24,361 bases of DNA. It comes from Bryobacteraceae bacterium. Lineage in GTDB: Bacteria; Acidobacteriota; Terriglobia; Bryobacterales; Bryobacteraceae. A program made the position numbers and the translations under genes. The stretch spans positions 1 through 24,361 of the forward strand of contig DASSSG010000213.1 in assembly GCA_035708545.1 (NCBI GenBank), read 5' to 3'. Below, piece after piece: positions 1,370-24,361 of this stretch. The notes beneath the pieces are model-generated. The model was given only the letters and a program-made list of their open reading frames with translations. It had not been told where the DNA came from and did no database searches. Each line of letters opens with the position of its first letter. Position 1 is the stretch's first letter.

Positions 1370-1884
1370 GAAGCTGCGCATTAAACAACTGCTAATGGTC
1401 TTGCAACGGTGTTCGTGAAAAGCCGGGATGCTCCGGGAAACAGAGCATGACACAAAAATCAATCAGGCGGGCTTTCGGGATATGTCGGGAAAGCCTGTCA
1501 AGTACCTTGAGAACGAAACGGAGCACGTCGTCATTTTCAGCGCGAAGACAGGGCCATAACCCAGTGGTAGAAATGCCAGCTTCTCAGGCTGGCTCCGAGT
1601 CCGTCCCTCCCGGCCAATATCCTTCTTCTCCTTTATCGATATCTTCCGAACGGCGAATCGTACTTGGTGTCCACGTTTGGCGAAAAATGCACACGATGCC
1701 ATGCCATAGTGGGCTCCGCTCCAAGACCCCACCGGGAGGGCAACTCGCCCTGGCGGCAGGCAAGCAGCAGATTATAGCTAAGATCAATCTGTGCTCCGGG
1801 GTGGGAACTATTTCCGCGCGGACACGTGTGCCTGGCAGTTCCTCAACGTCAACCGCTTCGTGTATCGTATAGAAACCGGTCAGG

Positions 1885-2679
1885 GTGGTGCTGGATACCG
1901 CCCTGATCTACGCAATGTGGCAGCACGCACCGTTCGCGAATCTCTGTGTGGGAGACACGGAGGTGCATCTGTGGCTGGTGCCGCTGGCCACTTCATCGGA
2001 AACCCTCGCCCTCGCGAGCGCGTTGTTATCGCTCGAGGAGACGGCTCGCGCGCGGCGGTTCCACCTCGAGAAGGACCGGGCCGCGTGTATTGCCAGCCGC
2101 GCCGTTCTGCGCACGCTGATCGCCCAATACACCGGGATGCCTCCACGTGCAATCGTCTTTGAATACGCGTCGACCGGGAAACCACGACTCGCCGGCGGCC
2201 ACGATCTGCACTTCAATGTCGCCCATTCCGGCGCTCTGGCCCTGTACGGATTTGCGCGTCACTACGAACTGGGAGTCGATATCGAATACGTGCGTGAAAC
2301 GCCCGACCTGGCGGCGATAGCGGACCGGTTTCTCAATGCCGGCGAACGCGGTGATCTCGCAAGCATCTCCGGTCCAGCCAAAACACGGGCATTCTATGAT
2401 TGCTGGACGCGGAAGGAAGCCCTGCTGAAGGCGACCGGGGCCGGCATCTCCGCCGGGCTCGACACCTTTCGTGTCTCCCTTCTGCCGTTTGAGCCGGCGC
2501 GGGTGCTCGCCGGAGACGGCGAATTCGCGCCGGACAGGTGGTCGCTGGTTGATGCGGTGCTCGGCGGCAATTACCGAGGTGCGCTGGCCATTCGCGGATC
2601 GGGATGGCATGTGCGGGCGTGCGCCTGTCGTGACGCGGCGCTCTGCTTGACGCGGGGTATCGCTGAGGATGAGCAGTGA
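1885..2679 (+). CDS. Sfp-type 4'-phosphopantetheinyl transferase
   Basis: Motifs VHLW, R..L..Y, GKP, HFNVAHSG, GVDIE and WTRKEALLKATGAG. The start could be GTG 1885 or ATG 1915. The stop overlaps the next start (GTGA). Confidence 0.93.
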   Translation: MVLDTALIYAMWQHAPFANLCVGDTEVHLWLVPLATSSETLALASALLSLEETARARRFHLEKDRAACIASRAVLRTLIAQYTGMPPRAIVFEYASTGKPRLAGGHDLHFNVAHSGALALYGFARHYELGVDIEYVRETPDLAAIADRFLNAGERGDLASISGPAKTRAFYDCWTRKEALLKATGAGISAGLDTFRVSLLPFEPARVLAGDGEFAPDRWSLVDAVLGGNYRGALAIRGSGWHVRACACRDAALCLTRGIAEDEQ

Positions 2680-4241
2680 AGGACCGCAACCGTCGCTGCG
2701 TGTCCGCGTACCACGAAACGGCAGTCCAGATTGGGGAGACTATCCTCGACTCCGGAGGAAACGCGTTCGACGCATTCGTCGCCTCAACCGCCGCGACTTA
2801 CGTCCTCGGAGAAGGTACTACGAGTCTGGCAGGCTGCTTGGGAGCGCTCACGTACAATGCGCGTACGCGGACGGTGGAGTATCTGGACGCGGATTTCAAT
2901 GAACCCAAAACCCGAAAACGCTGGTGGCGCCGAAGCTCGCCGCCGGGCAACACCGTTCCCGTTCCCGGAGCGGTCGCGGGCCTCGAAGCGCTTTCGAGGA
3001 AGTACGGGCGGTTCAGCTTCGCCGACGCGCTCGCTCCCGCAATCGCGCTGGCGCGCACCGGGTTTCACATCACCAAGTATTACGCTTCAGTGATCAGCGC
3101 GCGCTCACCAGTGCTCCAGCGTAGTGAATACGGCCGCCGGACGTTCTTTCCGGAGGAACGTCCGCTGCGCGAGGGCGATGTCCTCCGCCAGCCCGACGTC
3201 GCTGACTTTCTGACTAATATTGCGCGCTACGGCGCGGAGTACATGTACAACGGCCCGTGGGGCCGGCAGTTCGTCGAAACAGTTCGGGAGCGCGGCGGAT
3301 TGATAAAAAACGATGATCTGGCCGCATACACCGTCGAATGGCGGCAGCCGTGGACGATATCGTACCGGGAGCACGAGGTGTATGCCTGCTCCGGCTTCAC
3401 CTTCGGGGGCCTCTGGACGCTCGTGGCGCTAAAGACGCTGGAGAATATAGCTCCCCCATTTCCGGAGCACTTCTCAACTGCGCCCCAGATGCTGGAAGTC
3501 CTGCTCCGGCTTGCTCGCCAGGTTGATTCGGAAGCGTGGCTGTTCAACTACAAACAGCTCGCGAACCGCGAATACGTTCAATCGCGCCTTGCTCCTGAGT
3601 ACGTCGCCAACATCTGGAGCAGGGTGCAGGCAAGCGGATGCGGAAATTCCACCCGGTCGGGAACCGCGCACAGCTACCACGTCATCGCCATCGACCACGA
3701 AGGGAACGCGGTTACCGGGACAAACACGATCGAATCGGCTCCGTGGGCTGATGGGATCTTCGTGCAGGGCATCCCACTGTCGAATGCGCTGAAAATCCCG
3801 TACGGGACCCGTCCGGGAAAGCGGCGGCTCAATCTGCTGTCAATGCACCTGGTCCTGCGTGACGGCGCATTGCGTTTCGCTATCGGCGCATTCGCGAGTT
3901 CGTTGATCGAAGCGTCTCTCCAGTTCCTCGTAAACCTGATCGATTATCGGCTCAGCCCGGCAGAAGCTGCTCGTCTTCCACGCTTCGGCACCATTCCATT
4001 TGAACTGAACTCCGACGGCGACATCGTCTGGTGCGACACGTCGCGGAACTGGCTCGACAAGCGAGTGAACCCCGAGGTCGTGACCACGCTCGAGAGCCGC
4101 GGTCTGTTATTTCACCAGGAGCATATCGATACGGGACTGGGCAACATCGTCGTGGTCAACGAGGATGGCACCTTGCAGTCCGCGACCACTCCCGTTCAGC
4201 AGTCCGAACCCACACGCGCCAACGTGTCGGAGAACTATTGA
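2676..4241 (+). CDS. Gamma-glutamyltransferase-fold Ntn-hydrolase, atypical (Ser nucleophile, gamma-Glu pocket residues replaced), no signal peptide
   Basis: GGT-family motifs GGNAFDAFVA, VPVPGAVAGLEAL..KYG, LAPAIALARTGF, DLAAY, H..AID.EGNAV..T.TIE, PGKR and PRF. The current stop TGA (4239-4241) lies inside the IS end. Confidence 0.85.
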   Translation: MKDRNRRCVSAYHETAVQIGETILDSGGNAFDAFVASTAATYVLGEGTTSLAGCLGALTYNARTRTVEYLDADFNEPKTRKRWWRRSSPPGNTVPVPGAVAGLEALSRKYGRFSFADALAPAIALARTGFHITKYYASVISARSPVLQRSEYGRRTFFPEERPLREGDVLRQPDVADFLTNIARYGAEYMYNGPWGRQFVETVRERGGLIKNDDLAAYTVEWRQPWTISYREHEVYACSGFTFGGLWTLVALKTLENIAPPFPEHFSTAPQMLEVLLRLARQVDSEAWLFNYKQLANREYVQSRLAPEYVANIWSRVQASGCGNSTRSGTAHSYHVIAIDHEGNAVTGTNTIESAPWADGIFVQGIPLSNALKIPYGTRPGKRRLNLLSMHLVLRDGALRFAIGAFASSLIEASLQFLVNLIDYRLSPAEAARLPRFGTIPFELNSDGDIVWCDTSRNWLDKRVNPEVVTTLESRGLLFHQEHIDTGLGNIVVVNEDGTLQSATTPVQQSEPTRANVSENY

Positions 4242-4262
4242 TCTTCGTAAAATAGGGTGACA
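4238..4262 (+). repeat. IS630 left terminal inverted repeat (25 bp)
   Basis: TTGATCTTCGTAAAATAGGGTGACA versus the reverse complement of the right end, TTGAGGTTCGGATAATACAGTGACA: 19/25 identical by manual alignment. Confidence 0.88.
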
Positions 4263-4292
4263 GATTGGACAGTGCTGTGCGAATATGTGGGT

Positions 4293-4811
4293 ATGAGCCC
4301 CCGCGCGGCGCAGAAGAGGGATTTCGATAAATTAGAGCGGCGGCGGATGGCCGCGGCTAGGTTGCTCAACCGAGGAATCAGCCAGGCAGAAGTCGCGAGG
4401 CGAGTGAAAGTAAGTCGCGAAAGCGTTCGCCGTTGGTCGAATCAGATCCGTCAGCATGGTTCCGCCGCGGCCTTGAAGAAGGCCGGCCGAGCAGGCCGAA
4501 AGCCGGGGTTAACCGCGGCCGACTTGCGGAAACTCGAAGCAATCCTGCGCGCGGGACCGGAGAAAACCGGATTCACCAACGGACTGTGGACGCTCGATCG
4601 CATCGGCGAGGTCATCCGGAACGAGTTTCGGATCGATTATCACGCCGGCCATGTTTGGTGGATCCTGCGCCGGAAGCTCGGCTGGAGTTGTCAGCGGCCG
4701 GTCGGGCGAGCTCGCGAGCGAAACGAGGCAGCGATCCGCCAGTGGAAGGAAGAAACCTGGCCCGCGCTTAAAAAAAAGCCCGGAAAGAGGGCCGGATCAT
4801 CGTCTTCGTAG
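4293..4811 (+). CDS. IS630 transposase OrfA (N-terminal HTH / winged-helix part)
   Basis: HTH SQAEVARRVKVSRESVRRW, GRKP, GLWTLDRIGEVI, WILRRKLGWSCQRP..RARERNE and W.EETWPALKKK. ATG 4293 is preferred because GTG 4257 lies inside the TIR. Confidence 0.88.
   Translation: MSPRAAQKRDFDKLERRRMAAARLLNRGISQAEVARRVKVSRESVRRWSNQIRQHGSAAALKKAGRAGRKPGLTAADLRKLEAILRAGPEKTGFTNGLWTLDRIGEVIRNEFRIDYHAGHVWWILRRKLGWSCQRPVGRARERNEAAIRQWKEETWPALKKKPGKRAGSSSS
4769..4778 (+). promoter_or_regulatory. Programmed frameshift / slippage site T-A8-G
   Basis: An A run at 4770-4777 lies at the OrfA/OrfB junction. A -1 shift joins WPALKK to KARKEGRIIVFVDESG, the usual IS630 arrangement. Confidence 0.8.
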
Positions 4812-5308
4812 ACGAGAGCGGCGTCAGTCAGCGTCCGCATCGGGTGCGTACGTGGTCGAAACGGGGCGTGACGCCGATTCTGCAGCACCAGTTCAATTGG
4901 GACAATCTGTCGGTTGCCGCCGGAATCACGCTGTGGCAGTTCTACTTCCGGATGTACGACGGAACCATGGGCAAGGAGGACGTCCTCGATTTCGTCCGCC
5001 ATCTCAACAAACAGATCACGCAGCCCATTCTGCTGATCTGGGATCGTCTTCCCGGACACCGCAGCCGACTGGTCCAGGACTATCTCGCCAGCTTGCACGG
5101 CAAGATCGAGGCGTTCTATCTGCCCGCTTACGCTCCTGAGTTGCATCCGGCCGAGTACATCTGGGCCCACCTGAAACAGCATGAACTGGCTAACTTCTGT
5201 CCACGCGACCTCTGGAGCCTGTCAGCTGAAGCGCGCTCGGCACTCACCTCCATGCAGCGTCGTCACACGATTGTTACCGCCTGCTGGAAACAGGCTTCTT
5301 TGTTCTAA
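4775..5308 (+). CDS. IS630 transposase OrfB (DDE catalytic domain), reached by -1 frameshift; fused product about 338 aa
   Basis: The -1 frame reads KARKEGRIIVFVDESG...RTWSKRGVTP, then LIWDRLPGH and YAPELHPAEYIWAHLK. These supply D, D and E. The first Asp lies upstream of the ORF-track start at 4844. Confidence 0.88.
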   Translation, partial: KARKEGRIIVFVDESGVSQRPHRVRTWSKRGVTPILQHQFNWDNLSVAAGITLWQFYFRMYDGTMGKEDVLDFVRHLNKQITQPILLIWDRLPGHRSRLVQDYLASLHGKIEAFYLPAYAPELHPAEYIWAHLKQHELANFCPRDLWSLSAEARSALTSMQRRHTIVTACWKQASLF

Positions 5309-5310
5309 CT

Positions 5311-5335
5311 TGTCACTGTATTATCCGAACCTCAA
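5311..5335 (-). repeat. IS630 right terminal inverted repeat (25 bp)
   Basis: TGTCACTGTATTATCCGAACCTCAA, complementary to the left end at 19/25 positions and followed by TA. Confidence 0.88.
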
Positions 5336-7230
5336 TAGATTTTACCGGCGCAATCGCGGGGAATCGCCAGACTGAGGTACTGGTCTCCGTCACGGGCCAT
5401 GATCCTGAGCTGCACCATGCGATCAAGCCAGGTCCTGAGTTCCGCGCCGCCAGGACCGTTGCGCTCGCAGGCGTCGCTATTCAGTGTTTCAATCGAAACG
5501 AATGCAGGATTTTCGTGACCGTTGCGCAGCATCCGCTCGATCGCGACCACCGGGCGCGTCTGGTCGCAGAACTCGTAGACTCGCTTCTCCCAGCCTTGCA
5601 ACTGTGTAGACCGCTGGACCGGATCAGGGCGCATATCGCGGATCATCAGGAGATCCTCGCTCAGCGCATCTGACACCAGGGACGCGCCGCCAGCGTGGGC
5701 CTCGCGCCAGGCGGCAACCCGGTTTTCGATCGGACCTATATAGGCAGACGTGTCCACAGTGTCGGCGTAGTCGTAATCGAAGAAATAAGCGATGTCGGAC
5801 AAATCCGACTCGGGCAGGGGATACAGATATTTGTAGATTTCCATGGGGCGGACTTTCACCATCCCCAGCGAGGCGGGATCCTGAAAGTACGGACTGAAGC
5901 GGTCCAGGCGGATCCTGCCGGTGCCCTCCGGCGGCGGCAGGTGCGCCAGGCACTCCAGCAGCGGCATCATCTCTTCGTAATCGCGAGCGCTTTCGCCGGG
6001 AAACCCGTACAGGAAATTCCAGGTCGGCCGCACGCCGAATTGCCGGCACCACTTGAGCAGCTGCACGTTTTGCAGGGGCGAAACGCCTTTACGCATCAGG
6101 TTGAGAATGTGTTGATGGAGACTCTCGATGCCGGGCTGAATCCATGTGATGCCGGCATCCGCGAGCAGACGGACCTGTTCCTTTGTCAGATTCGCCTTCA
6201 CCTCATAGAAGAAGGTCAGATCCAGCTTTCGGCGCTTCAGCTCGGGCAGAAGATCGCGGAAGTACTGCATGTCAATGATGTTGTCTACTGTCGCGATCTC
6301 ATGCAGCGGGTAATGCGAAACCAGATGATCGAGTTCGGCCAGTACCCGGTCCTTGCTCTTCGCACGATAATGCATCGTCTCCCGGTTCAGGCCGCAAAAT
6401 GTGCAGTGATGTTTGGCGCCCCACCAGCAGCCGCGCGAGGTTTCCATCTGGAGCTTGAGCGGAATTTCCCAGGGAATCGAGCTGTGCTCAAGCTGCAGGA
6501 AGTAATCATGGAATTCCGGAAAGGACAGCGCATCCAGATCCTCGACGGCCCGCGGTGGTGCCGCGAAGACGCTGCCGTTTCCGTTACGGTAAATCAACCC
6601 GGGAATATCGTCCACCGGCCGGCGATGAAGGATGCGGTCCACAAACTCCGGAAAACTTTGGTCCGACTCGCCGGAGAACACGTAGTCCAGAAACGGGAAG
6701 CAGCGGTGCAGTCCGAGGCCCATGCGGTCCTCGCAATTGGCTCCGCCCATGACGGTTGTCTTGGCCGGGTACCACTGTTTCACCGCGCAGGCCAGAGCGA
6801 GCGACGGCAGATTCTGCTCGAACGTGGACGTGAAGCCCACGATTGAATACCGATCCCATGCCGTGGACGCGAGGCAGTAGTCCAGGAACGGTTCCACGAA
6901 CCGCCGCAGCCACACCACGGAATTCAGAACCTCCGGCTCGACAAACCGCTCGCCGCGCAGATAGCGAATGTAGGCGTTGCCGTCCGGTATCTGACCGCGA
7001 AACATATGGTCAGCGAATACCCATTCGCCGATGAAAAGGGTGTGGCTCATATATTCGCTGACCCATTCGTAATACGGCGCGCCGACCCAGTCCGCGAACT
7101 CGATATTGAAGTTCCGGATGTCGCATGGGATTCCGCGCCGGCGTACCGCGGACTGCAGGTTGCCGATTCCGATCGGAGGGCGATCCACGCCGGCGAACGG
7201 CATGTTGATCAGCAGGACGCCACCACTCAT
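5332..7230 (-). CDS. Cobalamin-dependent (class B) radical SAM enzyme, RiPP-maturation type (TIGR03975 / PoyB-PoyC-like), probable C-methyltransferase
   Basis: N-terminal B12-binding region (MPFA..RPPIGIG; VGFTSTFEQN...VMGGANC). ETSRGCWWGAKHHCTFCGLN gives CX7CX2C (Cys codons 6427-29, 6403-05, 6394-96). Also DNIIDM, FYEVKANL, IQPGIESL, WNFLYGFPGE, RLDRFSPYF and C-terminal YLSLA. RBS GGAGGT lies 6 nt before the ATG. The stop lies in the IS right end. Confidence 0.92.
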   Translation of the reverse strand: MSGGVLLINMPFAGVDRPPIGIGNLQSAVRRRGIPCDIRNFNIEFADWVGAPYYEWVSEYMSHTLFIGEWVFADHMFRGQIPDGNAYIRYLRGERFVEPEVLNSVVWLRRFVEPFLDYCLASTAWDRYSIVGFTSTFEQNLPSLALACAVKQWYPAKTTVMGGANCEDRMGLGLHRCFPFLDYVFSGESDQSFPEFVDRILHRRPVDDIPGLIYRNGNGSVFAAPPRAVEDLDALSFPEFHDYFLQLEHSSIPWEIPLKLQMETSRGCWWGAKHHCTFCGLNRETMHYRAKSKDRVLAELDHLVSHYPLHEIATVDNIIDMQYFRDLLPELKRRKLDLTFFYEVKANLTKEQVRLLADAGITWIQPGIESLHQHILNLMRKGVSPLQNVQLLKWCRQFGVRPTWNFLYGFPGESARDYEEMMPLLECLAHLPPPEGTGRIRLDRFSPYFQDPASLGMVKVRPMEIYKYLYPLPESDLSDIAYFFDYDYADTVDTSAYIGPIENRVAAWREAHAGGASLVSDALSEDLLMIRDMRPDPVQRSTQLQGWEKRVYEFCDQTRPVVAIERMLRNGHENPAFVSIETLNSDACERNGPGGAELRTWLDRMVQLRIMARDGDQYLSLAIPRDCAGKIY

Positions 7231-7263
7231 GACACAACCTCCAAAACTGCAGGTCGGAGCCGC

Positions 7264-7821
7264 TCAGCCGGACAGCGCCTCCAGCCTGACCTGGATTTTC
7301 TCGAGGCGGTTGATGGTAGGCTGCACACTCGGCAGCAATCGTTCGAGCTCAGCCCGATAAGAATCGAACGCGCGCTCGCTGGCTCCGGCAACGCGGGTCG
7401 CGGTTGAAACGTCAGACTTGCCGAATCGACGCACATAGGCCTGAATTTCCTGGCCCTGCGCTATCAGTCGGATATCTTCCTGCACAGAATCAGCAAGCTG
7501 CTTACCTTTCTCCAGCAGATCCCGCACATACTGCCTGCACTCGGGAAGGCAGGCTTCCCGTTCGTGCTCGTCGATGGTTTCGAGATAACGCAAATAAGCC
7601 TCGATGTCAGTCGGCATCCGTTCGAGAAATTGCAGCACCGCGGAGTGCTCTCCAAGCGCATGCGTGTATTTGGACAGCAGCGGTCCTTTAATCGAGGAAT
7701 CGGCGTGAATATTCGCCGGCGCGGACACCGCACCTGACGACATCGACGCGAAGTAATCTGAGTAACCCTGAAGATACGCGCACCATATCCGTTCCTCCGG
7801 AGACTGCGACGAACCGATCAT
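7264..7821 (-). CDS. Hypothetical protein, 185 aa, apparently alpha-helical
   Basis: Its ATG overlaps the TGA of the upstream NRPS (ATGA), and it fills the gap before the radical SAM gene. No family motif recognised. Confidence 0.7.
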   Translation of the reverse strand: MIGSSQSPEERIWCAYLQGYSDYFASMSSGAVSAPANIHADSSIKGPLLSKYTHALGEHSAVLQFLERMPTDIEAYLRYLETIDEHEREACLPECRQYVRDLLEKGKQLADSVQEDIRLIAQGQEIQAYVRRFGKSDVSTATRVAGASERAFDSYRAELERLLPSVQPTINRLEKIQVRLEALSG

Positions 7822-16788: not shown

Positions 16789-19700
16789 GATGAGCCGACC
16801 TCGCCTGTAGCTGCTTTCTGACCCGGACGATGGCTTCCCGCTGTTTCGCCGCGCGCTCCGTGAAGTCCGCCGCCGGCACGCCCTCTTCCTGAGCAGTCAG
16901 GAACTTCGCGAGGGAGCCAACGGTCGGATAGCGGAACAAATCGATGATCGAGAACTCCGCCGCGATCACGTCACGCAGCCTGACGTGGAGGCGGTAGAGC
17001 ATCATCGAATGGCCGCCGAGATCGAAGAAGTTATCATCGACGCCGACGGCGGGCATTCCGAGTACTTCCCGCCACACGCCGGCGATCTTCCTCTCCAACT
17101 CATTTCGAGGCGCGCCGGACGCCCCGTCGGCCCGCGACCTGGCCTGATCGGGCAGGGGGAGGGCGCGCCGATCCACTTTCCCATTCGGTGTGAGGGGCAG
17201 CGAGTTCAGCAATACGACTGCGGCTGGAACCATGTATTCGGGAAGGCGGCTCCTCAGGTAGTCCTTGAGCGCCGGTGTGAGTTTTTCGACGAGCTGCGCC
17301 TGGAGCGGATTGTTGGTCCAGGCGCTCCAGTTCGGCGCGGCGGAGCGCGCCGGAACAGCGGCGGCGGGCGATAAAGCCTCCGTGTGCCGCCTGAACAGCA
17401 CGTCGTACTCAGGGCCGGCGCCATGGCCGGACCAACTGATCGAGACGTGGCAGTCCAACTCCTTCTCGAGCGCCCAGAAGTCGTGCGGGTCTACGCCGTC
17501 TCGTTTGAGTTTGTTCAGGCTCCGTTTTATCTCGCCGACGGTGAGCGGGCAATCGTCCGACCACAGCAGGTCGGCCGCGCGCACGTCTGTCTCGACACGT
17601 GCGTTGGGCACTCGCGTTATGGCGAGCGCATCGAGACCGCACTCGCGCACCAGGTCGCGCACGGTCGTGAGGCTTCGCACCTCTGCCCAGTCGAGCGACG
17701 GCGGCTCGGGAGCGCCGGCGGCGGGCCCCGCGGTCAGGACGCAGTCATAACGGTACCGCGTGAGCTCGTTATGAAACCGGCCGCGTTTCAACTGCACTTC
17801 GATGCCGCCGACGCGTGAGATTCGCTGGCCCAGGGCAAGAAACAGTGCCGGATCGACAAGCAGCTCTTCTTCGCTGTGCAGCCGCCGTTCGATGCGTTGC
17901 CGCAACTCCCTGGCGAGCATTCCGTCCGGGGCCCGGTGCAGTTCCACCGCGGTTCGGAATGCCTTCAGCAGCGGCAGGCCGCGGATATCTCCAACGAAGA
18001 CGTACCCGCCGTCGCGGGTTGTCTCGACGGCTCCTTCGAGCACCCGCAGGAGGTATTCGGCGTCGGAGAAGTATTGCACGACCGAGTTCAGCACAACGAC
18101 GTCAAACGCGCGCCGTGAGATCAATTCGAAATCGTCCGCCGTGCGTTCGAGGAGCGTCACGTTGGTGAGTCCCCGAGGCGCCAACTGACGTCGCACATGG
18201 TCGAGCGACACCCGGGAGAAATCGGTGCCCACGTATTCGTCACAGTGCGGCGCGATACGAAACAGCAGCAATCCGGTCCCACATCCGATCTCCAGAACCC
18301 TGCGGGGCCGTAATTGCAGGATGCGTTGCGAGGCGTGCTCGACCTGCTCGCGCATCTCCGCCTCCGGAATCGGCAGGCCGGTGTAACTGCTGTTCCAGCC
18401 GGCAATGTGAAAAGCGCCGTCGTGGGGCGGAGCGGCTTCGCTCATCGTCTGGTCGAAGACCTTGCGCCACTGCGCGACCTGGTCGGACGATGCGAGCCCC
18501 TCCATCGCGCCCGCACCGCGCGCATCCGGCACAACATAGGCGACAACCCGCTTTTCGCCGTACGCCTCCTCACGTGCCACGATTACCGCCTCTCTAACGG
18601 CGGGATGCTGGCGCAAATTCGATTCGATCTCACCGAGTTCGATGCGGAACCCGCGGATCTTGACCTGGTCATCCGTGCGGCCAAGGAATTCGAGATTGCC
18701 ATCGGCGCGCCAGCGCACGAGGTCGCCGGTTCGGTACAGGCGTGCGCCTTCGCGCGGGTCGAACGGATGCGGAATGAACTTCTCGGCCGTCAGTTCCGGG
18801 CGATTCAGGTAACCGCGCGCAAGACCGTCCCCGCTGATATGCAGTTCGCCCGGCACTCCGATCGGCACTGGCTGGAGATGCGCGTCGAGCACGTAAACTC
18901 GTTTGTTCGAGATCGGCCGCCCGAGCGGCGGCTCGCCCGCAGAGCCGCCGGCCAGGAGCGGTGCGCAGGTCGTAACCACCGTATCCTCGGTCGGACCGTA
19001 ATGGTTGAACACGGAGAACGGCAATCCGCTGCGCGGCCAGTGCTGCAAACGGTCGCCTCCGGTAAGCAGGCCGCGGAGGCGCACTCCGCCGGTCCAGGAC
19101 AGCTCGAGGACTGCCTCGGCGAGCGGCGTCGGCAGGAAGCAAAGTGTGATTCGCTCCGCCGTCAGCCATCTCACCAGCCCCGGCGGCGAAGCCAGCGTCG
19201 CTTCGCCGGGAATGTGGAGACTGGCGCCGCGCGCCAGATACGGCCAGATCTCCCACACGGACGCGTCGAAGGCGGGACTCGCGATCAGCGTGGCGCGGTC
19301 CTCGTGCGTGACGCTATAGGCCCGGTGGTGCCACGCGACAAGGTTGAGCAAACCGCCGTGCTCGATCTCCACTCCGCGCGGCGTGCCGGTGGAGCCGGAC
19401 GTATAGATGACATACGCACGGCTGGAGGTTGACAGCGCAGAATCACACTCACTGTCAGCCAGAGCCGGCCCGTCCGCCGGTGCCTCATCCAGGCAGACAC
19501 GCTCGAAGCCGCCCTCAGGCAGCTTGTCCAGGAACCTTCGTACCGTCAGTACAACCGGGGTCTTTGTGTCGGCGAGCATGAACGCCAGCCGCTCACGCGG
19601 ATACGCCGGGTCGAGTGGTACGTATGCGGCTCCTGCCTTGAGCACGCCTAAGACGGCGATTACAAGTTCAAGCGACCGCTCCAGACACACCGCGACCAGC

Positions 19701-21376
19701 GAATCGCCTCCGACGCCACGATCGAGGAGATGGCGTGCGATCTGGCCGGCGCGCCGGTTCAACTCGGAATACGTGAGACTGCGGTCCTGCTGGACCACGG
19801 CAATCGCCGACGGATCGCGACGTGCCTGATCGGCCACGAGCTGATGGACACAGCGGTCGCGGCTGTACGCTCGTGCGGTCGCGTTCCACTCGTCGAGCAA
19901 CCGTGCCTGCTCGGAAACACTCAGCAGCGGCAGCTCCGACAGCCTGCGATCGGGGTGTGCGGCAATCGCCGCGATCAGCACGTGAAAATTCGCGGCGAGG
20001 CGGGCAATCGTGTCATCCTCAAAAAGGTCGGTGCTGTATTCGAACTGACCGTTCAGGCCTCCCGGAGTCTCAAGCAAATCGAACCGCAGGTCGAACTTCG
20101 CGGTTCCCAGTTCCACCTGGGGCGCGGGCGGCAGCTCCTCAGCCGGTTCGGCGCCCGTCGATGGCGGCCCACTTAGCAGCTGGAACGTTACCTGGAATAG
20201 CGGATTTCTGCTGACGTCGCGCTCCGGCCGCAATTCCTCCACCAGTTTTTCGAACGGCACATCCTGGTGTGCGTATGCCGCCAGTGCGACCTGCTTTGCT
20301 CGCCGAAGCGCCTCTCGAAACGTTGGATCGCCAGACACGTCGATGCGCATCACCAGTGTGTTGACGAAGAACCCGATCAGCCCCTCGAGTTCCTCGCGAT
20401 TGCGATTCGCTATGGGTGCGCCGATGACAATGTCGTCCTGCCCCGTGTAGCGATGCAGCAGCTCCGCGAACGCAGCCAGAAGCGTGATGAACAGGGTAGT
20501 GCCCTCGCGCTGCGTCAGCGCCGTCAGCCGGCCCAGCTCAGGATCGCGAATCTCGATCTCCCGGCGAGCGCCGCGGAAGCTCGGCACCGCCGGCCGCTGA
20601 CGATCAGCGGGCAACTGCAGCACGGGCAGATTCGCGAGTTGCCTTTTCCAGTAGCTCAGTTGCTCGTCGAGGACCTCACCGCTGAGCCATTCCCGTTGCC
20701 ACACTGCGAAATCGGCGTACTGAATCGGCAGTTCCGGAAGAGGCGAAGCCTGGCCCATCGCGAACGCACCATAGAGCGCGGTCAGCTCGCAGAAGAACAC
20801 GTCCATCGACCAGCCGTCGCAAACGATGTGGTGCATCGTGAGCATGAATACGAACTCCTGCTCCGAACATCTGACGAGTGCGACACGGACCAGCGGATCG
20901 CGTGAGAGATCGAAAGGGGCGTATGTCTGTTCGAGTGCAAGGCGCGCTATCTCGGCTTCCCTCTCCTCGCGCGGCATCTCCGTGAGGTCGATGAGTGGCA
21001 TCGACAGGCGGAGAGAGGGCGCGATGACCTGCCGGGGCTCGCCGTCGATAATGCGGAATGTGGTGCGTAACGCCTCGTGGCGTCGCACGATCTCGTTCAG
21101 GCTTCGCTCCAGCACTGCGGGATCGAGCGCAGCTTCCACTCGGAACGTGCTGGTTTCGTTGTATGATGACGAGCCCGGCATCAACTGATCGAGAAACCAC
21201 AGCCGTTGCTGGGCAAATGAGAGCGGCGCAGGCCCTGGCTGTGTACGCCGCGGAATAGAATTCGACTGGCGTCCCTCGCCGCGCAACCTCTTTTCGAGCA
21301 AGGCACGCTTCACCGCCGAAAGCTCCGGCCTGGCTGGAGTCGCCTGTTCTGACTTGCTTCCGCCCACGGCGCTCAT
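16781..21376 (-). CDS. NRPS module C-A(N-methyltransferase inserted between A8 and A9)-T, leucine-type specificity
   Basis: C: HHIVCDGWS. A: YTSGSTGTPRG, FDASVWE and NHYGPTE; manual pocket code DAWFLGHVVK. N-MT (about 17303-18484): GWNSSYTG.PIP, LEIGCGTGLL and NSVVQYF. T: NFFDLGGHSM. The stop overlaps the PKS start by 8 nt. Confidence 0.95.
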   Translation of the reverse strand: MSAVGGSKSEQATPARPELSAVKRALLEKRLRGEGRQSNSIPRRTQPGPAPLSFAQQRLWFLDQLMPGSSSYNETSTFRVEAALDPAVLERSLNEIVRRHEALRTTFRIIDGEPRQVIAPSLRLSMPLIDLTEMPREEREAEIARLALEQTYAPFDLSRDPLVRVALVRCSEQEFVFMLTMHHIVCDGWSMDVFFCELTALYGAFAMGQASPLPELPIQYADFAVWQREWLSGEVLDEQLSYWKRQLANLPVLQLPADRQRPAVPSFRGARREIEIRDPELGRLTALTQREGTTLFITLLAAFAELLHRYTGQDDIVIGAPIANRNREELEGLIGFFVNTLVMRIDVSGDPTFREALRRAKQVALAAYAHQDVPFEKLVEELRPERDVSRNPLFQVTFQLLSGPPSTGAEPAEELPPAPQVELGTAKFDLRFDLLETPGGLNGQFEYSTDLFEDDTIARLAANFHVLIAAIAAHPDRRLSELPLLSVSEQARLLDEWNATARAYSRDRCVHQLVADQARRDPSAIAVVQQDRSLTYSELNRRAGQIARHLLDRGVGGDSLVAVCLERSLELVIAVLGVLKAGAAYVPLDPAYPRERLAFMLADTKTPVVLTVRRFLDKLPEGGFERVCLDEAPADGPALADSECDSALSTSSRAYVIYTSGSTGTPRGVEIEHGGLLNLVAWHHRAYSVTHEDRATLIASPAFDASVWEIWPYLARGASLHIPGEATLASPPGLVRWLTAERITLCFLPTPLAEAVLELSWTGGVRLRGLLTGGDRLQHWPRSGLPFSVFNHYGPTEDTVVTTCAPLLAGGSAGEPPLGRPISNKRVYVLDAHLQPVPIGVPGELHISGDGLARGYLNRPELTAEKFIPHPFDPREGARLYRTGDLVRWRADGNLEFLGRTDDQVKIRGFRIELGEIESNLRQHPAVREAVIVAREEAYGEKRVVAYVVPDARGAGAMEGLASSDQVAQWRKVFDQTMSEAAPPHDGAFHIAGWNSSYTGLPIPEAEMREQVEHASQRILQLRPRRVLEIGCGTGLLLFRIAPHCDEYVGTDFSRVSLDHVRRQLAPRGLTNVTLLERTADDFELISRRAFDVVVLNSVVQYFSDAEYLLRVLEGAVETTRDGGYVFVGDIRGLPLLKAFRTAVELHRAPDGMLARELRQRIERRLHSEEELLVDPALFLALGQRISRVGGIEVQLKRGRFHNELTRYRYDCVLTAGPAAGAPEPPSLDWAEVRSLTTVRDLVRECGLDALAITRVPNARVETDVRAADLLWSDDCPLTVGEIKRSLNKLKRDGVDPHDFWALEKELDCHVSISWSGHGAGPEYDVLFRRHTEALSPAAAVPARSAAPNWSAWTNNPLQAQLVEKLTPALKDYLRSRLPEYMVPAAVVLLNSLPLTPNGKVDRRALPLPDQARSRADGASGAPRNELERKIAGVWREVLGMPAVGVDDNFFDLGGHSMMLYRLHVRLRDVIAAEFSIIDLFRYPTVGSLAKFLTAQEEGVPAADFTERAAKQREAIVRVRKQLQARSAHHG

Positions 21377-21380
21377 AACT

Positions 21381-24359
21381 TCATCGTGCTCCTTGCAGCA
21401 GATTTTGGGCGTGCTCCTCGCTCAGGCCGCCGATCTCCTTCAATAACGCGTCTTCAATCACTTCAGCCAGACCGGCGATCGTCGGCGACTGGAAGATGTG
21501 CTGCAGCGGCAGCTCGACCTGGAAGACCTTGCGCACGCGCGACATGAGCTGCGTCGCCATGAGCGAGTGACCGCCGAGCTCGGTGAAGAAGTTATTGTGT
21601 ATTCCGACCTGTTTGAGTCCCAGCAACTCACACCAGATGCTGGCCAGCTGCTCCTCAGCCGCGGTACGCGGACCGACGAACCGCTCTTCTGGATCGGACC
21701 AGTTCCGGTCTGGACCGGGCAGACTCCGCCGATCCACTTTGCCGTTCGGAGTTCTGGGCAAGGCGTTCAGGACGAGAAAAGCCGCGGGCGCCATGTGAGC
21801 GGGAAGCCGCTCGCCAAGGTAGCTGGCCAGCATCGGCCCGAGGTCCTGGGCTTTTTGCCCGGCCAGAGGATTGTTCGCATACGCCGTCCACGGTTTTGAC
21901 GCGGGCTTTGGCCGGGCCGGAAAATCGGCGACGCGCGGGCCGTCCGATGCGGAGCTTAAAAACAACGCGTTGAAGTCCGCCTCGGACGCCGAATACGCCC
22001 AACCGACCAGAACATCCCTGCCCAGCCCACGTCCGAGCGCCCAGAATGCCTCCGGCTCGACACCACGTCCGGCCAGTGTGGATACCGCCTCCTTCAACTC
22101 GGCGGCTGTCGAAGGCCCGTATGGATCGGCCAGCAACTCCAAAGCCCCCACGGCGGCCGAAAGCCGCGCATTGGGGACGCCGGTCACCAGAACATCGCCT
22201 GTGGCAGCATCCGTCAGCGCTTCCCCCAAAGCGGCGGCGCTGCCGAGGCGAGCCCATTCGAGGACCTGCACTTCGCTGGCACGGGCAGGCGAATGGCCGA
22301 TGCGAAGCGCGACATCGTACCGGAATATCGTGAGCTCGTTGTGATATTGTCCGCGCTTGAGCTGCTGCTCGACAGCTCCGATCCGCGGATTGCTCGCCGC
22401 AAATGCGGTGAAGAAAGCGGGATCGAGCAGCAGTTCCCGTTCCTGCGCCATGCGCTGTTCTACTCTCTGCCGCAGATGCGACAGCGGAAGAGAGCCCGGC
22501 ACCCGGTCGAGCTCTAACGAGGTAAGAAACGCCTTTGCCAGCGGCAGAGCGCGGACATCTCCCACAAAGACAGTTCCGCCGTCCGACAGCACCTGCACCG
22601 CGCCGTTGAGAACGCGCAGCAGGTATTCCACGCTCGGGAAATACTGCACGACCGAGTTCACAATGACGAGGTCAAACGCACCTTCCTCGAGTCCCTCGAA
22701 GTTCTCGGCGGAGCGCTCGAGCAATTCCACCTGCGCCAGAAGGAGGCGGTCTGCCTCGCGGCGCACGTGCGCCAGCGCGGCTGCCGAGAAGTCCGTTGCC
22801 ACATATCGCGAGCAGTACGACGCGATGCGGAAAAGCAAAAGCCCCGTGCCGCAGCCGATTTCCAGTACCCGGCGGGGATGGAGCCGAAGGATCCGTTCCA
22901 CCGTTCGGTCGACTTGCTCCTGCATCTCCGCAGTCGGGATAGGCAGCCCGGTGTAGCTGCTGTTCCAGCCGATGGTATTGAACGTCGGATCCGGCTGCGG
23001 ATTCGGTTGAAGGTAGATGTCATCGTACAATTCCCGCCAGCGGGCGACCTGCTCGGCACCCGGCGCATCCTCCTGCGCAAAGAGCGCGCGGTAAAACGGA
23101 TTCGCTCTGAAGGGTGCGCGTTCGTAGTACGAGCAGTAGTCGAATGCAATCTCTTCCCCGCTTTTCCGCACGAGTGCGCCACGCATTCGGTAATCCGGCG
23201 TCCAGCCGTTGTCGCTGGGTGCGGCGGCAAAGACTGCGCGGATCGAATCACCTTCCTCGACGGGCACACCGGGGTAGAAAACGGGGAAGAACACGGGGAG
23301 CCATGTGTATTCGCGGCTAAGCACGTCGATCAGCTCCTCACGGTCGGGCCACAGGTTCAGCCAGAGCAGGAATCCATCGAGTCGTGAAGCCTTGTTGATG
23401 GTCAGGCTGATGTCGCGTTCGTATGCCGGCGTGATGTGCGCGGTGAAATCCAGTTCCTCGGCCACAGCGGAGTTCGACAGGATATGCGAGTGCGGCAGAT
23501 TCTTCACACACACTCTCACGTCGAATGGATGTCCGACCTTTTCGAAGATCTTCTGCGTGTAGTGAGACGTCATGTCGCCGAACTTCGGACGGCCTGCAAG
23601 CGCGTCGGGCAGCGAGACGGCGGCGATCTTTGTTTCGCTTCGCCAGGGGATCATAACGCCCCCCGGCTTCAGAAAGCGCCACGCATTGTTGAGCAGCGGA
23701 ACGACGCCCTCGGAAGACGCGATAGTGCCGATCAGCTCGGACACGCATACGTCGACTTTTTCGGGAAGCTCAACTTCGAGAGAGTCGCCGTGGATGAGCG
23801 TAACCCTGTCTTCGAGCCCCAGGCTGCGGATCAGCGTGCGCGCCCCTTCGAACGAGTCATCGAGCATCTCGATTGCATACACGCGTTCAGCGCCGGCTTC
23901 GGCACAGATGCGCGCCAGAATCGCGTCCCTTCCCGTGCCGATATCGACGACAGTCTTGCCCCGGACCACGCGCTCAATGGCGGCTCGGTAGGCCGCGATG
24001 CGCGGTTCATCGTGCGTCATAGCGTAGTAGAGCAGCTCATCGTATATGAAGTACTCGCCCACCGAGGGCCACAGTTCCGGCTGTTTCCCGACGGGCACCA
24101 CGTAAGCGACGAGCACAGCGTCGCTTCGCTCCTCGTCGGTGCGCGCGACGACAACCGCGTCCTCAACGGCCGGATGGTCTTTCAGGTGTGCCTCGATTTC
24201 GCCGAGCTCGATCCGAAAGCCCCGTACCTTGACCTGCTGATCGACTCGGCCCATGTATTCAAGGGCGCCGTCCCTGCGGTAGCGGGCCAGGTCTCCAGTC
24301 CGGAACAAGCGGCTGCCTTCTTCGTCAGAGAACGGGTTCGCTATGAATTTGGCTCGCGT
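21381..24359 (-). CDS. NRPS, 5'-truncated: A(C-terminal part) interrupted by PRMT-like MT plus backbone N-MT, then A-subdomain and T
   Basis: The frame is open to the window edge (TRAKFIANPFSDEEGSRLFRTGD). A7/A8 motifs are followed by MT1 (about 23079-24080), MT2 (about 21864-23057), NGKVDR and T NFFTELGGHSL. Confidence 0.93.
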   Translation of the reverse strand, partial: TRAKFIANPFSDEEGSRLFRTGDLARYRRDGALEYMGRVDQQVKVRGFRIELGEIEAHLKDHPAVEDAVVVARTDEERSDAVLVAYVVPVGKQPELWPSVGEYFIYDELLYYAMTHDEPRIAAYRAAIERVVRGKTVVDIGTGRDAILARICAEAGAERVYAIEMLDDSFEGARTLIRSLGLEDRVTLIHGDSLEVELPEKVDVCVSELIGTIASSEGVVPLLNNAWRFLKPGGVMIPWRSETKIAAVSLPDALAGRPKFGDMTSHYTQKIFEKVGHPFDVRVCVKNLPHSHILSNSAVAEELDFTAHITPAYERDISLTINKASRLDGFLLWLNLWPDREELIDVLSREYTWLPVFFPVFYPGVPVEEGDSIRAVFAAAPSDNGWTPDYRMRGALVRKSGEEIAFDYCSYYERAPFRANPFYRALFAQEDAPGAEQVARWRELYDDIYLQPNPQPDPTFNTIGWNSSYTGLPIPTAEMQEQVDRTVERILRLHPRRVLEIGCGTGLLLFRIASYCSRYVATDFSAAALAHVRREADRLLLAQVELLERSAENFEGLEEGAFDLVIVNSVVQYFPSVEYLLRVLNGAVQVLSDGGTVFVGDVRALPLAKAFLTSLELDRVPGSLPLSHLRQRVEQRMAQERELLLDPAFFTAFAASNPRIGAVEQQLKRGQYHNELTIFRYDVALRIGHSPARASEVQVLEWARLGSAAALGEALTDAATGDVLVTGVPNARLSAAVGALELLADPYGPSTAAELKEAVSTLAGRGVEPEAFWALGRGLGRDVLVGWAYSASEADFNALFLSSASDGPRVADFPARPKPASKPWTAYANNPLAGQKAQDLGPMLASYLGERLPAHMAPAAFLVLNALPRTPNGKVDRRSLPGPDRNWSDPEERFVGPRTAAEEQLASIWCELLGLKQVGIHNNFFTELGGHSLMATQLMSRVRKVFQVELPLQHIFQSPTIAGLAEVIEDALLKEIGGLSEEHAQNLLQGAR

Positions 24360-24361
24360 GA

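What the first reader, a model, noticed from the sequence alone, without database searches (positions are those of the whole stretch)
1885..24361. Candidate undescribed system: methylation-dense, TE-less NRPS-PKS line with borrowed enzyme families
Seen: four modules are served by five predicted methylating units of four kinds (two backbone N-MTs, a PRMT-like MT, a docked O-MT-like enzyme and a B12 radical SAM), plus a remodelled Ser-Ntn hydrolase, an unknown protein and a dedicated PPTase, with no TE. Inference: the C-terminal product segment is roughly (N-Me, side-chain-Me X)-(N-Me-statine, possibly O-Me)-(Pro/Pip, possibly C-Me). I do not recognise this combination as a characterised cluster, but only part of it is visible. 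Host taxon is undetermined.
Basis: partly seen in the sequence, partly recalled or inferred. Interest (0 to 1): 0.8.

Follow-up and report, generated by a model that had tools for sequence, protein, structure and literature searches.

The report
Methyl-rich NRPS-PKS cluster with odd helpers
This contig carries most of a hybrid peptide-polyketide gene cluster from an uncharacterised but recurring cluster family, whose signature is a Ser-type GGT-like hydrolase next to a doubly methylating peptide-synthetase module, and which here also includes a radical SAM methylase of a type normally found in ribosomal-peptide pathways.

Summary
The gene and domain inventory is real. On the minus strand: ...A(MT,MT)-T; C-A(N-MT)-T; KS-AT-KR-ACP; a free MT; C-A-T; a 185-aa orphan; a B12-type rSAM. 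On the plus strand: an IS630, a GGT-like gene and an Sfp-type PPTase.

Three readings change.
1. The "PRMT-like" MT is the known type III side-chain methyltransferase of interrupted A domains (52% identical to CrpC, 46% to a DidJ-like ORF). Back-to-back with an N-MT it forms the published "family 5b". It lies in a distinct subclade tied to an unassigned A-domain code, DVLDTGMISK.
2. The cluster is not TE-less. A 91-97% identical sister contig has a free-standing thioesterase gene abutting the start of NRPS1. NRPS1 starts with an elongation-type C domain, so earlier modules exist.
3. The hydrolase does co-occur with these NRPS genes. Its invariant-Ser GGT subfamily sits directly after the same module type in at least 7 independent metagenome contigs. 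One of them carries four TIGR03975 rSAMs and an S8 peptidase.

Predicted segment: (N,side-chain-diMe X)-(N-Me-statine, possibly O-Me)-Pro. The roles of the rSAM, the hydrolase and the orphan are inferred only. Verdict: uncharacterised variant of a known kind, moderately interesting.

The parts
21381..24359 (-). NRPS1, 3' 992 codons of an 1856-codon gene: end of the A domain, type III side-chain MT (about 23040-24077), N-MT (about 21780-23039), a9-a10, T domain (about 21456-21653), and a docking-like tail
   Evidence: Pfam. Full-length sister protein P0249 is C-A(MT,MT)-T. MT1 is 52% identical to CrpC and 45.5% to the T. mobilis DidJ-like ORF.
16781..21376 (-). NRPS2: C-A(N-MT)-T, A code DAWFLGHVVK (Leu-like)
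   Evidence: Pfam. Code read by hand. The same code recurs in related clusters L129 and L131.
12178..16788 (-). PKS module KS-AT-KR-ACP. The AT has GHSIG...HAFH (malonyl type), the KS has the TACSTS cysteine, and there is no DH/ER
   Evidence: Pfam; motifs
11255..12181 (-). Free-standing class I MT (308 aa) with an N-terminal docking-like helix. It is a split form of the C-terminal MT domain of KS-AT-KR-ACP-MT proteins
   Evidence: Pfam and NCBIfam. 39-40% identical to the MT domain of 1776-aa KS-AT-KR-ACP-MT ORFs in G127/G408. 42-49% identical free MTs occur in related clusters.
7818..11258 (-). NRPS3: C-A-T, A code DVQFIAQVVK (Pro-like), C-terminal docking-like tail, no TE/R/terminal C
   Evidence: Pfam; code. 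8 of 9 code positions equal those of the A domain directly upstream of the Me2Tyr module on T. mobilis pTM3.
7264..7821 (-). Orphan 185-aa predicted helical protein whose start overlaps the NRPS3 stop
   Evidence: One homologue among 5.8 billion proteins, the sister contig's copy at 87% identity. No family hit. The Atlas model gives only a generic helical bundle.
5332..7230 (-). B12-type radical SAM C-methyltransferase of the RiPP family TIGR03975, last gene of the minus-strand operon
   Evidence: NCBIfam 682 bits against cut-off 281.85. Homologue names and contexts. Tree.
4238..5337 (+). IS630-family insertion (HTH ORF 4257-4811, DDE ORF 4844-5308) between the convergent rSAM and GGT-like genes. 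It adds one Tyr codon and a new stop to each gene
   Evidence: Pfam and NCBIfam. Sequence ends. The sister proteins end one residue earlier...KI and ...EN.
2676..4241 (+). GGT-fold Ntn-type hydrolase with a Ser at the nucleophile position and no gamma-glutamyl pocket. It belongs to a subfamily linked to this cluster family and lacks the N-terminal anchor that most relatives have
   Evidence: Pfam. Alignment to E. coli GGT 2e0w. Subfamily alignment with invariant H-S. Contexts. N-termini.
1885..2679 (+). Sfp/HetI-type PPTase whose stop overlaps the GGT-like start
   Evidence: Pfam and NCBIfam. The PPTase-GGT pair is kept in the sister sample. GGT followed by PPTase is seen in L129 and L132.

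Best explanation
The window is most of a hybrid NRPS-PKS biosynthetic gene cluster from a MAG that is probably Acidobacteriota/Pyrinomonadaceae. That placement rests only on the source names of the nearest homologues. The cluster belongs to an uncharacterised family that recurs in metagenomes. Most parts of the following set are seen in each related contig: a C-A(X)-[type III side-chain MT]-[N-MT]-T module, a C-A(Leu-like)-N-MT-T module, often a KS-AT-KR-ACP module, a ~310-aa docking MT, and a Ser-nucleophile GGT-like hydrolase, sometimes with an Sfp-type PPTase.

Shown: the domain order, and homology of each part to parts of known function. Inferred: NRPS1 receives a chain from modules encoded elsewhere, because its C domain is elongation-type. 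It adds residue X, methylated on the backbone N and on the side chain. NRPS2 adds N-Me-Leu. The PKS extends it with malonate and reduces the ketone, giving N-methylstatine. The free MT docks on a C-terminal tail and probably O-methylates that hydroxyl. NRPS3 adds Pro. A discrete thioesterase encoded just upstream of NRPS1, seen only in the sister contig, is the likeliest release or editing enzyme.

The TIGR03975 rSAM most likely C-methylates an unactivated carbon of the NRPS-made peptide. The GGT-like enzyme most likely hydrolyses an amide bond of the product or of a pro-form. In most relatives it carries a signal or anchor sequence, so there it would act after export. The 185-aa protein has no assignable role.
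For: Architecture. Sister contig with TE, S8 and small ORFs, all on one strand. MT1 is a type III M domain. Published family 5b: PMC8341866. A codes and AT motif. C1 is 55-61% identical to the internal C2/C3 and has a docking head. The MT matches the C-terminal MT of KS-AT-KR-ACP-MT proteins.

Cluster family: contig Ga0669154_0000096 carries a 51%-identical NRPS1-like gene, a 46%-identical NRPS2-like gene, a 46%-identical 308-aa MT, four rSAMs (44-48%), an S8 peptidase and two GGT-likes (47%), interleaved on one strand. L122/L164, L128, L129, L131, L132, L143 and L153 have the O-MT-bearing module directly upstream of the GGT-like gene. Where it could be read, their X code is D[VA]xD[TVI]G[ML]I[STN], and their M domains form one clade with 99% support.

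Hydrolase: Ser nucleophile and lost pocket. Signal/anchor in L128, L122, L118a/b and L125, less clearly in L129.
Against: No product is known and X is unassigned. The code matches no published code in the searchable literature, so even O- versus N-methylation of its side chain is not settled.

The rSAM's nearest relatives (55-60% identity) all lie in RiPP-type contexts: ThiF-YcaO-nitroreductase, or coupled to an S8 peptidase. None of the 16 other rSAM loci tested by tblastn has NRPS or PKS neighbours. The window's rSAM and the four on L118 are not one clade.

The JGI loci were chosen by their GGT-like gene. The reverse rule is not shown: the five X-clade loci found through the M domain (L026, L038, L040, L057 and the related-code L038/L040 rows) show no GGT-like gene within their flanks, some of which are short. 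About two thirds of GGT-subfamily loci of 5 kb or more show no NRPS or PKS.

In two relatives (L121, L129) the free MT follows an NRPS module rather than a PKS, which weakens the statine-O-methylation reading. The window's hydrolase lacks the anchor its relatives have. The TE is known only from a Pfam label on a contig whose DNA could not be read.
Confidence: 0.6

Rival explanations
1. Two systems, not one. The rSAM, together with the S8 peptidase and the small ORFs at the other end of the sister contig, is a RiPP unit into or beside which an NRPS-PKS block has landed. The rSAM then methylates a ribosomal peptide and does not touch the NRPS product.
For: The rSAM is a full TIGR03975 member. 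Its closest relatives are in YcaO/ThiF RiPP clusters. Its sister on the tree, P0005, is coupled to an S8 peptidase with small ORFs nearby. 0 of 16 other loci tested have NRPS neighbours. The MAG has its own rSAM-ThiF-YcaO locus on C170. The sister contig has an S8 peptidase plus 73/161/98-aa ORFs.
Against: In the sister contig every gene from the S8 peptidase through the NRPS genes to the rSAM runs on one strand with short gaps. The rSAM lies 33 nt after a gene that overlaps NRPS3 and is bracketed by the cluster's PPTase. On L118/L121 the rSAMs are interleaved with two GGT-like genes and a free PCP directly after the NRPS1-like gene. No precursor-like ORF lies beside the rSAM in the window or on L121.
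Confidence: 0.28
2. Non-colinear order. NRPS3 (Pro) acts before NRPS1, with its C-terminal tail docking on NRPS1's unpaired N-terminal head. The PKS is then the last module, the free MT docks on the PKS tail, and the discrete TE releases a C-terminal O-methyl-statine acid.
For: There are three LS(D/E)xxxxxLL-type tails (NRPS1, PKS, NRPS3) and four LxxxKRxLLxxL heads (NRPS1, NRPS2, NRPS3, MT). NRPS1's head has no partner encoded upstream in the sister contig. In G127/G408 the MT is the C-terminal domain of a KS-AT-KR-ACP-MT protein.
Against: NRPS3 also starts with an intact elongation-type C domain and a head, so it would still need a donor. Gene order favours colinearity. Docking was not tested. 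The MAG holds a separate FAAL-T-C start on C843 that could supply the missing donor.
Confidence: 0.12
3. One reading: a PRMT-like domain that N-methylates a basic or amide side chain of X, rather than O-methylating a hydroxyl.
For: Weak PRMT5/PrmA Pfam hits. The E-x8-E loop is present. The X-type A code differs from Tyr codes and has an acidic residue at position 278. The X-type M domains form their own clade.
Against: The same E-x8-E loop and 46-52% identity are shared with the Tyr O-methylating domains of CrpC and the DidJ-like ORF. All characterised members of this M type are O-methyltransferases (PMC8341866).
Confidence: 0.15
4. The GGT-like enzyme makes the building block X, as LmbA/Ant6 do for 4-alkylprolines, rather than maturing the finished product.
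For: In every GGT-ascertained NRPS locus where the module could be read, the hydrolase gene directly follows the X module, and all those modules share the unusual code. GGT homologues with non-GGT chemistry in natural-product precursor supply are documented (PMC5519988).
Against: Most relatives carry a signal or membrane anchor, which fits action outside the cytoplasm. No other precursor-pathway genes are conserved beside it.
Confidence: 0.15

Closest known systems
Family 5b interrupted adenylation domains (DidJ of didemnin, VatN of vatiamide; Lundy et al. 2020, PMC8341866) and the CrpC O-MT domain of cryptophycin
   Same: Two M domains sit back-to-back in the a8-a9 loop, side-chain MT first and then N-MT. 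MT1 is 45.5-52% identical over its whole length to the DidJ-like and CrpC domains, and NRPS1 is collinear with the 2187-aa T. mobilis ORF.
   Different: The A-domain code is DVLDTGMISK rather than the Tyr codes DASTLAAVC / DASTIAGIG. The M domain falls in a separate, well-supported subclade tied to that code. The substrate and the methyl acceptor are therefore unknown.
Statine/dolaisoleuine-type NRPS-PKS module pairs (didemnin isostatine, dolastatin-10-type Dil units)
   Same: C-A(N-MT)-T followed by KS-AT(malonyl)-KR-ACP, with an O-MT candidate and a following Pro module.
   Different: The O-MT is a separate docked protein rather than an embedded domain. The host is not a cyanobacterium. The accessory genes (GGT-like, TIGR03975 rSAM, S8) are not part of those clusters as far as I know (recollection, not tested). 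No MIBiG comparison was possible.
Proteusin/TOMM-type RiPP B12-radical SAM C-methyltransferases (TIGR03975; PoyB/PoyC-like)
   Same: Full-length family member at 682 bits, 55-60% identical to enzymes in YcaO/ThiF clusters.
   Different: It sits as the last gene of an NRPS-PKS operon with no precursor gene beside it. A second, independent NRPS-linked set of four paralogues exists on L118/L121.
GGT homologues and Ntn hydrolases in natural-product pathways (LmbA/Ant6, PMC5519988; PvdQ of pyoverdine, from my own knowledge)
   Same: GGT/Ntn fold used for non-glutathione chemistry inside a biosynthetic cluster. Like PvdQ, most relatives are exported. A FAAL-initiated NRPS start exists in the same MAG.
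   Different: Ser instead of Thr at the GGT nucleophile position, with Arg114, Asp433, Ser462/463 and the Gly-Gly oxyanion pair all replaced. Relatedness to LmbA or PvdQ was not tested. The window's copy lacks the anchor.

Membership tests
Interrupted A domain family 5b (A8-M[III]-M[I]-A9) | Two methyltransferase domains back-to-back between A-domain motifs a8 and a9 | tested here: met
   In P0249, the first half of AMP-binding_C is at 918-956, MT hits lie at about 991-1101 and 1342-1474, the a10 motif is at about 1731, and T is at 1767-1832.
Interrupted A domain family 5b (A8-M[III]-M[I]-A9) | The first M domain is the type III side-chain MT (the DidJ/VatN/ThxA2 type) | tested here: met
   45.5% identity to the T. 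mobilis pTM3 DidJ-like ORF and 52% to CrpC over 97-98% of the domain.
Interrupted A domain family 5b (A8-M[III]-M[I]-A9) | The substrate is L-Tyr (Tyr/Phe-type specificity code) | tested here: not met
   The code is DVLDTGMISK, against DAST[ILV]A[AG][VI][CG] in CrpC, the DidJ-like ORF and most of the 69 GTDB loci. The M domain lies in a separate clade.
TIGR03975 RiPP maturation radical SAM C-methyltransferase | Score above the curated NCBIfam cut-off over the full length | tested here: met
   682.1 bits against 281.85, covering residues 5-623 of 632.
TIGR03975 RiPP maturation radical SAM C-methyltransferase | A ribosomal precursor peptide and RiPP partners (YcaO/ThiF etc.) in the neighbourhood | tested here: not met
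   None in the window. The neighbours are NRPS genes. The small ORFs of the sister contig could not be read.
Gamma-glutamyltranspeptidase (TIGR00066 / PF01019) | GGT fold match | tested here: met
   PF01019 at 233 bits over residues 22-506.
Gamma-glutamyltranspeptidase (TIGR00066 / PF01019) | Thr nucleophile and gamma-glutamyl-binding residues (E. coli R114, D433, S462/S463, G483-G484); equivalog score | tested here: not met
   Ser at the T391 position and R114 replaced by D; the other residues are replaced or gapped. The Ser is invariant in the subfamily. TIGR00066 scores 205, below its cut-off of 358.
Sfp-type PPTase | ACPS plus the AASDHPPT N-terminal domain | tested here: met
   PF01648 at 64 bits and PF22624 at 48 bits. 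The HetI model scores 169, below its equivalog cut-off of 370.
Characterised (MIBiG) cluster | A full-architecture match to a cluster with a known product | not testable with these tools
   No MIBiG or antiSMASH is available here. Literature searches for the A-domain codes and for TIGR03975 gave nothing relevant.

The most novel reading that the evidence does not exclude
A family of NRPS(-PKS) clusters has co-opted ribosomal-peptide tailoring enzymes, namely leader-independent TIGR03975 B12-radical SAM C-methyltransferases and an S8 protease, together with a new Ser-nucleophile branch of the GGT fold. These enzymes remodel and mature a non-ribosomally made, heavily methylated peptide built around an unknown residue X. 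The two separate rSAM lineages found in two members of the family would then reflect independent recruitment for the same job.
Probability: 0.3. Interest if true: 0.75.

Novelty: new variant of a known kind. Interest (0 to 1): 0.55.

Why it matters
If the accessory enzymes act on the NRPS product, this would be a case of RiPP-type radical SAM C-methylases working without a leader peptide. It would also add a new catalytic branch of the GGT/Ntn fold dedicated to secondary metabolism. Both would be useful for enzyme discovery and peptide engineering.

The cluster family comes from poorly explored soil phyla. The nearest homologue names are Pyrinomonadaceae, Gemmatimonadota and Longimicrobium. 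It encodes statine-type, multiply N/O-methylated peptides, a chemotype associated with protease inhibition and cytotoxicity in cyanobacterial products.

The distinct A-domain code plus M-domain subclade also flags an unassigned building block that current predictors would miscall as Tyr.

Tried and rejected
- Extending the contig inside the MAG failed. No other contig carries the NRPS1 N-terminus or a real TE; the PF00975 hits are 22-28 bits, and the only other C domain is on C843.
- The DNA of the sister contig (ERZ1758598) could not be fetched, so its S8, small ORFs and TE are known only as Pfam labels and lengths.
- The record behind L118 could not be searched.
- 40 relatives in the same family or order have no double-MT A domain.
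- 400 phylum genomes have no GGT-like homologue at E<=1e-50. Only two have an MT homologue, in both cases fused to a PKS.
- u185: no homologue beyond the sister copy, no family, no similarity to the unknown ORFs of L118 or L129 or to the neighbours of other rSAMs; the Atlas gives only generic helical matches.
- Naming the host failed. rpoB is missing from the MAG and the cluster look-ups returned no names.
- No TubC-type docking Pfam hit on the N-termini.
- Literature searches for the A codes and for TIGR03975 gave nothing useful.
- KR stereochemistry could not be typed from motifs: neither the LDD nor the W signature is present.
- No complex prediction or structure prediction was run.
Full report
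**What is there.** The window is the whole of contig C213, the longest contig of a 4.7-Mb, 843-contig, 77%-complete MAG with GC 0.63.

ORF listing and Pfam/NCBIfam scans give one minus-strand operon:
- NRPS1 fragment 21381-24359: end of the A domain, two MT domains, T.
- NRPS2 16781-21376: C-A(N-MT)-T.
- PKS 12178-16788: KS-AT-KR-ACP.
- A free 308-aa MT, 11255-12181.
- NRPS3 7818-11258: C-A-T with a ~50-aa tail.
- An unknown 185-aa ORF, 7264-7821, whose start overlaps the NRPS3 stop.
- A radical SAM gene, 5332-7230.

Convergent on the plus strand are an Sfp-type PPTase (1885-2679), coupled to a GGT-fold gene (2676-4241). An IS630 (about 4238-5337) lies between the two convergent ends. An apiosidase-like gene (3-1187) marks ordinary flanking DNA. 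ORF 1447-1872 looks non-coding.

**What the window hides.** One ENA metagenome contig (ERZ1758598, 29,415 bp) carries the same genes at 87-97% protein identity. Its gene table shows, all on one strand with short gaps: an S8 peptidase (458 aa), ORFs of 73, 161 and 98 aa, and a 265-aa PF00975 thioesterase whose end abuts NRPS1. NRPS1 follows, then NRPS2, PKS, MT, NRPS3, the 185-aa ORF and the rSAM.
- Full-length NRPS1 (P0249, 1856 aa) is C-A(MT,MT)-T.
- Its C domain is 55-61% identical to the internal C domains of NRPS2 and NRPS3. It is preceded by the same LxxxKRxLLxxL head, so it is an elongation C domain that expects an upstream donor.

"TE-less" and "four modules" are therefore properties of the contig break, not of the cluster.

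The PPTase-GGT pair lies on a separate 3.2-kb contig of the same sample. The sister rSAM and GGT-like proteins end one residue earlier (...KI and ...EN) than in the window. This fits the IS630 having inserted into overlapping stop codons and supplied a Tyr codon and a new stop to each gene.

The only other NRPS fragment in the MAG is C843, which starts a gene with FAAL-T-C. It could be the missing initiation part, or it could belong to another cluster.

**The "PRMT-like" domain.** A tblastn search of the first MT domain against plasmid records hit two NRPS genes over 97-98% of the query:
- The NRPS lying between two large synthase genes on Nostoc sp. ATCC 53789 plasmid pNsp_c. I take this to be the cryptophycin CrpC position from my own knowledge. 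Identity is 52%.
- A 2187-aa ORF on Tistrella mobilis pTM3, at 45.5%.

Their A-domain codes are the Tyr codes DASTIAGIG and DASTLAAVC.

Lundy et al. 2020 (PMC8341866) classify exactly this arrangement as "family 5b": a type III side-chain O-MT immediately followed by a type I N-MT inside the a8-a9 loop. Their representatives are DidJ and VatN. So the architecture is known, though rare.

The domain type is common: 248 relatives among GTDB species genomes. Six of the 80 loci kept have the back-to-back form.

**A twist: residue X.** Reading the specificity codes by hand and by alignment gives DVLDTGMISK for A1, which is not a Tyr code.
- Among the 69 GTDB loci with a type III M domain whose code could be read, most have DAST/DAWT Tyr/Phe-type codes.
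- Smaller groups have DVE[DN].GAIT or D[VA]xD.G[ML]I[STN].
- On a tree of the M domains, the rows with the latter code, including the window, form one clade with 99% support.
- No paper in the searchable library contains these codes.

The side-chain methylation is therefore real, but its acceptor, and even whether it is O or N, is not established. I call the residue X.

**The rest of the line.**
- A2 reads DAWFLGHVVK, one position off the Leu code DAWFLGNVVK as I recall it.
- The AT has GHSIG and HAFH, the malonyl type. The KS cysteine and the KR catalytic residues are present.
- A3 reads DVQFIAQVVK. Eight of nine positions match the A domain directly upstream of the Me2Tyr module on pTM3. From the structure of didemnin, that domain should load Pro.

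The free MT is 39-40% identical to the C-terminal MT domain of 1776-aa KS-AT-KR-ACP-MT proteins in two genomes of the same class. So it is a split-off PKS MT domain that kept a docking head. O-methylation of the statine hydroxyl is the natural guess. However, in two related clusters the MT follows an NRPS module instead, so I hold that at about even odds.

**Do the odd genes belong? The hydrolase.** Alignment to E. coli GGT (2e0w) puts Ser at the Thr391 position and Asp at Arg114. It removes Asp433, Ser462/463 and the Gly-Gly pair.

An exhaustive search found a subfamily of about 55 representative clusters at 33-49% identity, in which the His-Ser motif at the nucleophile position is invariant.

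The nearest member (49%) lies on JGI contig Ga0669154_0000096. On one strand that contig carries:
- an NRPS2-like C-A(N-MT)-T (46% identity);
- a 308-aa MT with the same docking head (46%);
- an NRPS1-like C-A(MT,MT)-T of 1849 aa (51% over the full length);
- then rSAM, rSAM, a 247-aa ORF, rSAM, S8 peptidase, GGT-like, rSAM, aldolase, a free PCP, a second GGT-like, MT, a flavoprotein and another MT.

A metagenome scan seeded with the hydrolase alignment, followed by tblastn and Pfam, found the O-MT-bearing module directly upstream of the hydrolase gene in L122/L164, L128, L129, L131, L132, L143 and L153.
- These loci often also carry the free MT and a KS-AT-KR-ACP or a Leu-type N-MT module. 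L128 is the clearest: AT-KR-ACP | MT | C-A(MT,N-MT)-T | GGT-like | TylF MT | C-A(N-MT)-T.
- L129 and L132 have a PPTase after the hydrolase.
- L125 and L148 have a PKS nearby.
- All the modules whose code could be read have the X-type code, and two carry the identical Leu-like code.

This is independent evidence that the hydrolase is part of a recurring cluster family.

Caveats:
- These loci were selected through the hydrolase.
- About two thirds of subfamily loci of 5 kb or more show no NRPS or PKS.
- The X-clade loci found through the M domain show no hydrolase within their, sometimes short, flanks.

Most NRPS-linked hydrolases have an N-terminal hydrophobic anchor or signal sequence; the window's copy does not. 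That favours a maturation role after export in the relatives. It argues against direct off-loading from a carrier domain.

**Do the odd genes belong? The rSAM.** It is a full member of TIGR03975.
- Its nearest non-sister relatives (55-60% identity) sit in rSAM-ThiF-YcaO-nitroreductase clusters, or next to an S8 peptidase and small ORFs.
- None of the 16 other loci tested by tblastn has NRPS or PKS neighbours.
- The MAG has its own rSAM-ThiF-YcaO fragment on C170.
- On the tree, the window's enzyme groups with the S8-coupled P0005 inside a RiPP-context clade. The four L118 paralogues form a separate clade.

So NRPS linkage has arisen at least twice within the same cluster family: in the window's lineage and in L118/L121, with a distant third in L143.

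I read this as recruitment of RiPP-type C-methylases to an NRPS product. I keep about 0.28 on the rival that a RiPP unit (S8, small ORFs, rSAM) is merely interleaved with the NRPS block. The small ORFs that would decide this could not be read.

**The 185-aa ORF.** It has one homologue among 5.8 billion proteins, the sister's copy at 87% identity, which makes it the least conserved gene of the cluster. It has no family hit and only a generic helical-bundle model. It is not conserved in the related clusters. Its function is unknown, and the CLPEC motif noted earlier is not conserved in the sister copy.

**Verdict.** It overstates novelty for the MT domains and is wrong about the thioesterase.

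It is a new variant of a known kind (a hybrid NRPS-PKS cluster). Three parts deserve follow-up: residue X with its own M-domain subclade, the Ser-type GGT-fold hydrolase, and the RiPP-family radical SAM methylases in an NRPS setting.

Host placement in Acidobacteriota/Pyrinomonadaceae rests only on the source names of the nearest homologues.

Noticed in passing
G000 contig C843 (L009:2-2560, minus strand): The start of an NRPS gene with a fatty-acyl-AMP ligase, a carrier region and a C domain that runs off the contig end, directly after a pyruvate kinase gene. It is the only other NRPS fragment in the MAG and may be the missing initiation part of this line.
   Followed up: partly
G000 contigs C170 (L011) and C45 (L010): Two further TIGR03975-like rSAM paralogues (52% and 40% identity). 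The C170 copy sits in a classical rSAM-ThiF-YcaO RiPP arrangement.
   Followed up: partly
window 4238-5337: An IS630 with imperfect terminal inverted repeats and TA flanks is inserted where the stop codons of the convergent rSAM and GGT-like genes overlapped. Both genes gain one Tyr codon compared with the sister strain. The transposase is split into an HTH ORF and a DDE ORF.
   Followed up: partly
L018:14340-19670 (G127) and G408:C67: Stand-alone KS-AT-KR-ACP-MT synthases (1776-1780 aa) in two genomes of the same class. Their C-terminal MT domain is the closest genomic relative of the window's free MT. They have no NRPS neighbours, and a zinc-ribbon rSAM lies nearby in G127.
   Followed up: partly
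L025, L030, L035, L037, L082, L097 (Pyrinomonadaceae); L034, L053, L036, L087 (cyanobacteria): A third group of A domains carrying the type III M domain has codes DVE[DN].G[AC]I[TS], which are neither Tyr-type nor X-type. This suggests that this M domain serves at least three substrate classes.
   Followed up: no
L118/L121 (JGI Ga0669154_0000096): Four tandem TIGR03975 paralogues (a local duplication clade), two GGT-like genes, a free PCP, a class II aldolase and a flavoprotein follow an NRPS that ends in T with no TE or docking tail.
   Followed up: partly
L128:16982-19240 and L128:11548-12426; L131:11796-12701: Related clusters add a TylF-type O-MT directly after the GGT-like gene, and L128 also has two PhyH-type dioxygenases. 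Oxygenation and methylation load therefore varies within the family.
   Followed up: no
window 1447-1872: A 141-codon ORF rich in Ser/Thr/Arg, with no family hit and not called in the sister sample. Probably not a gene.
   Followed up: yes
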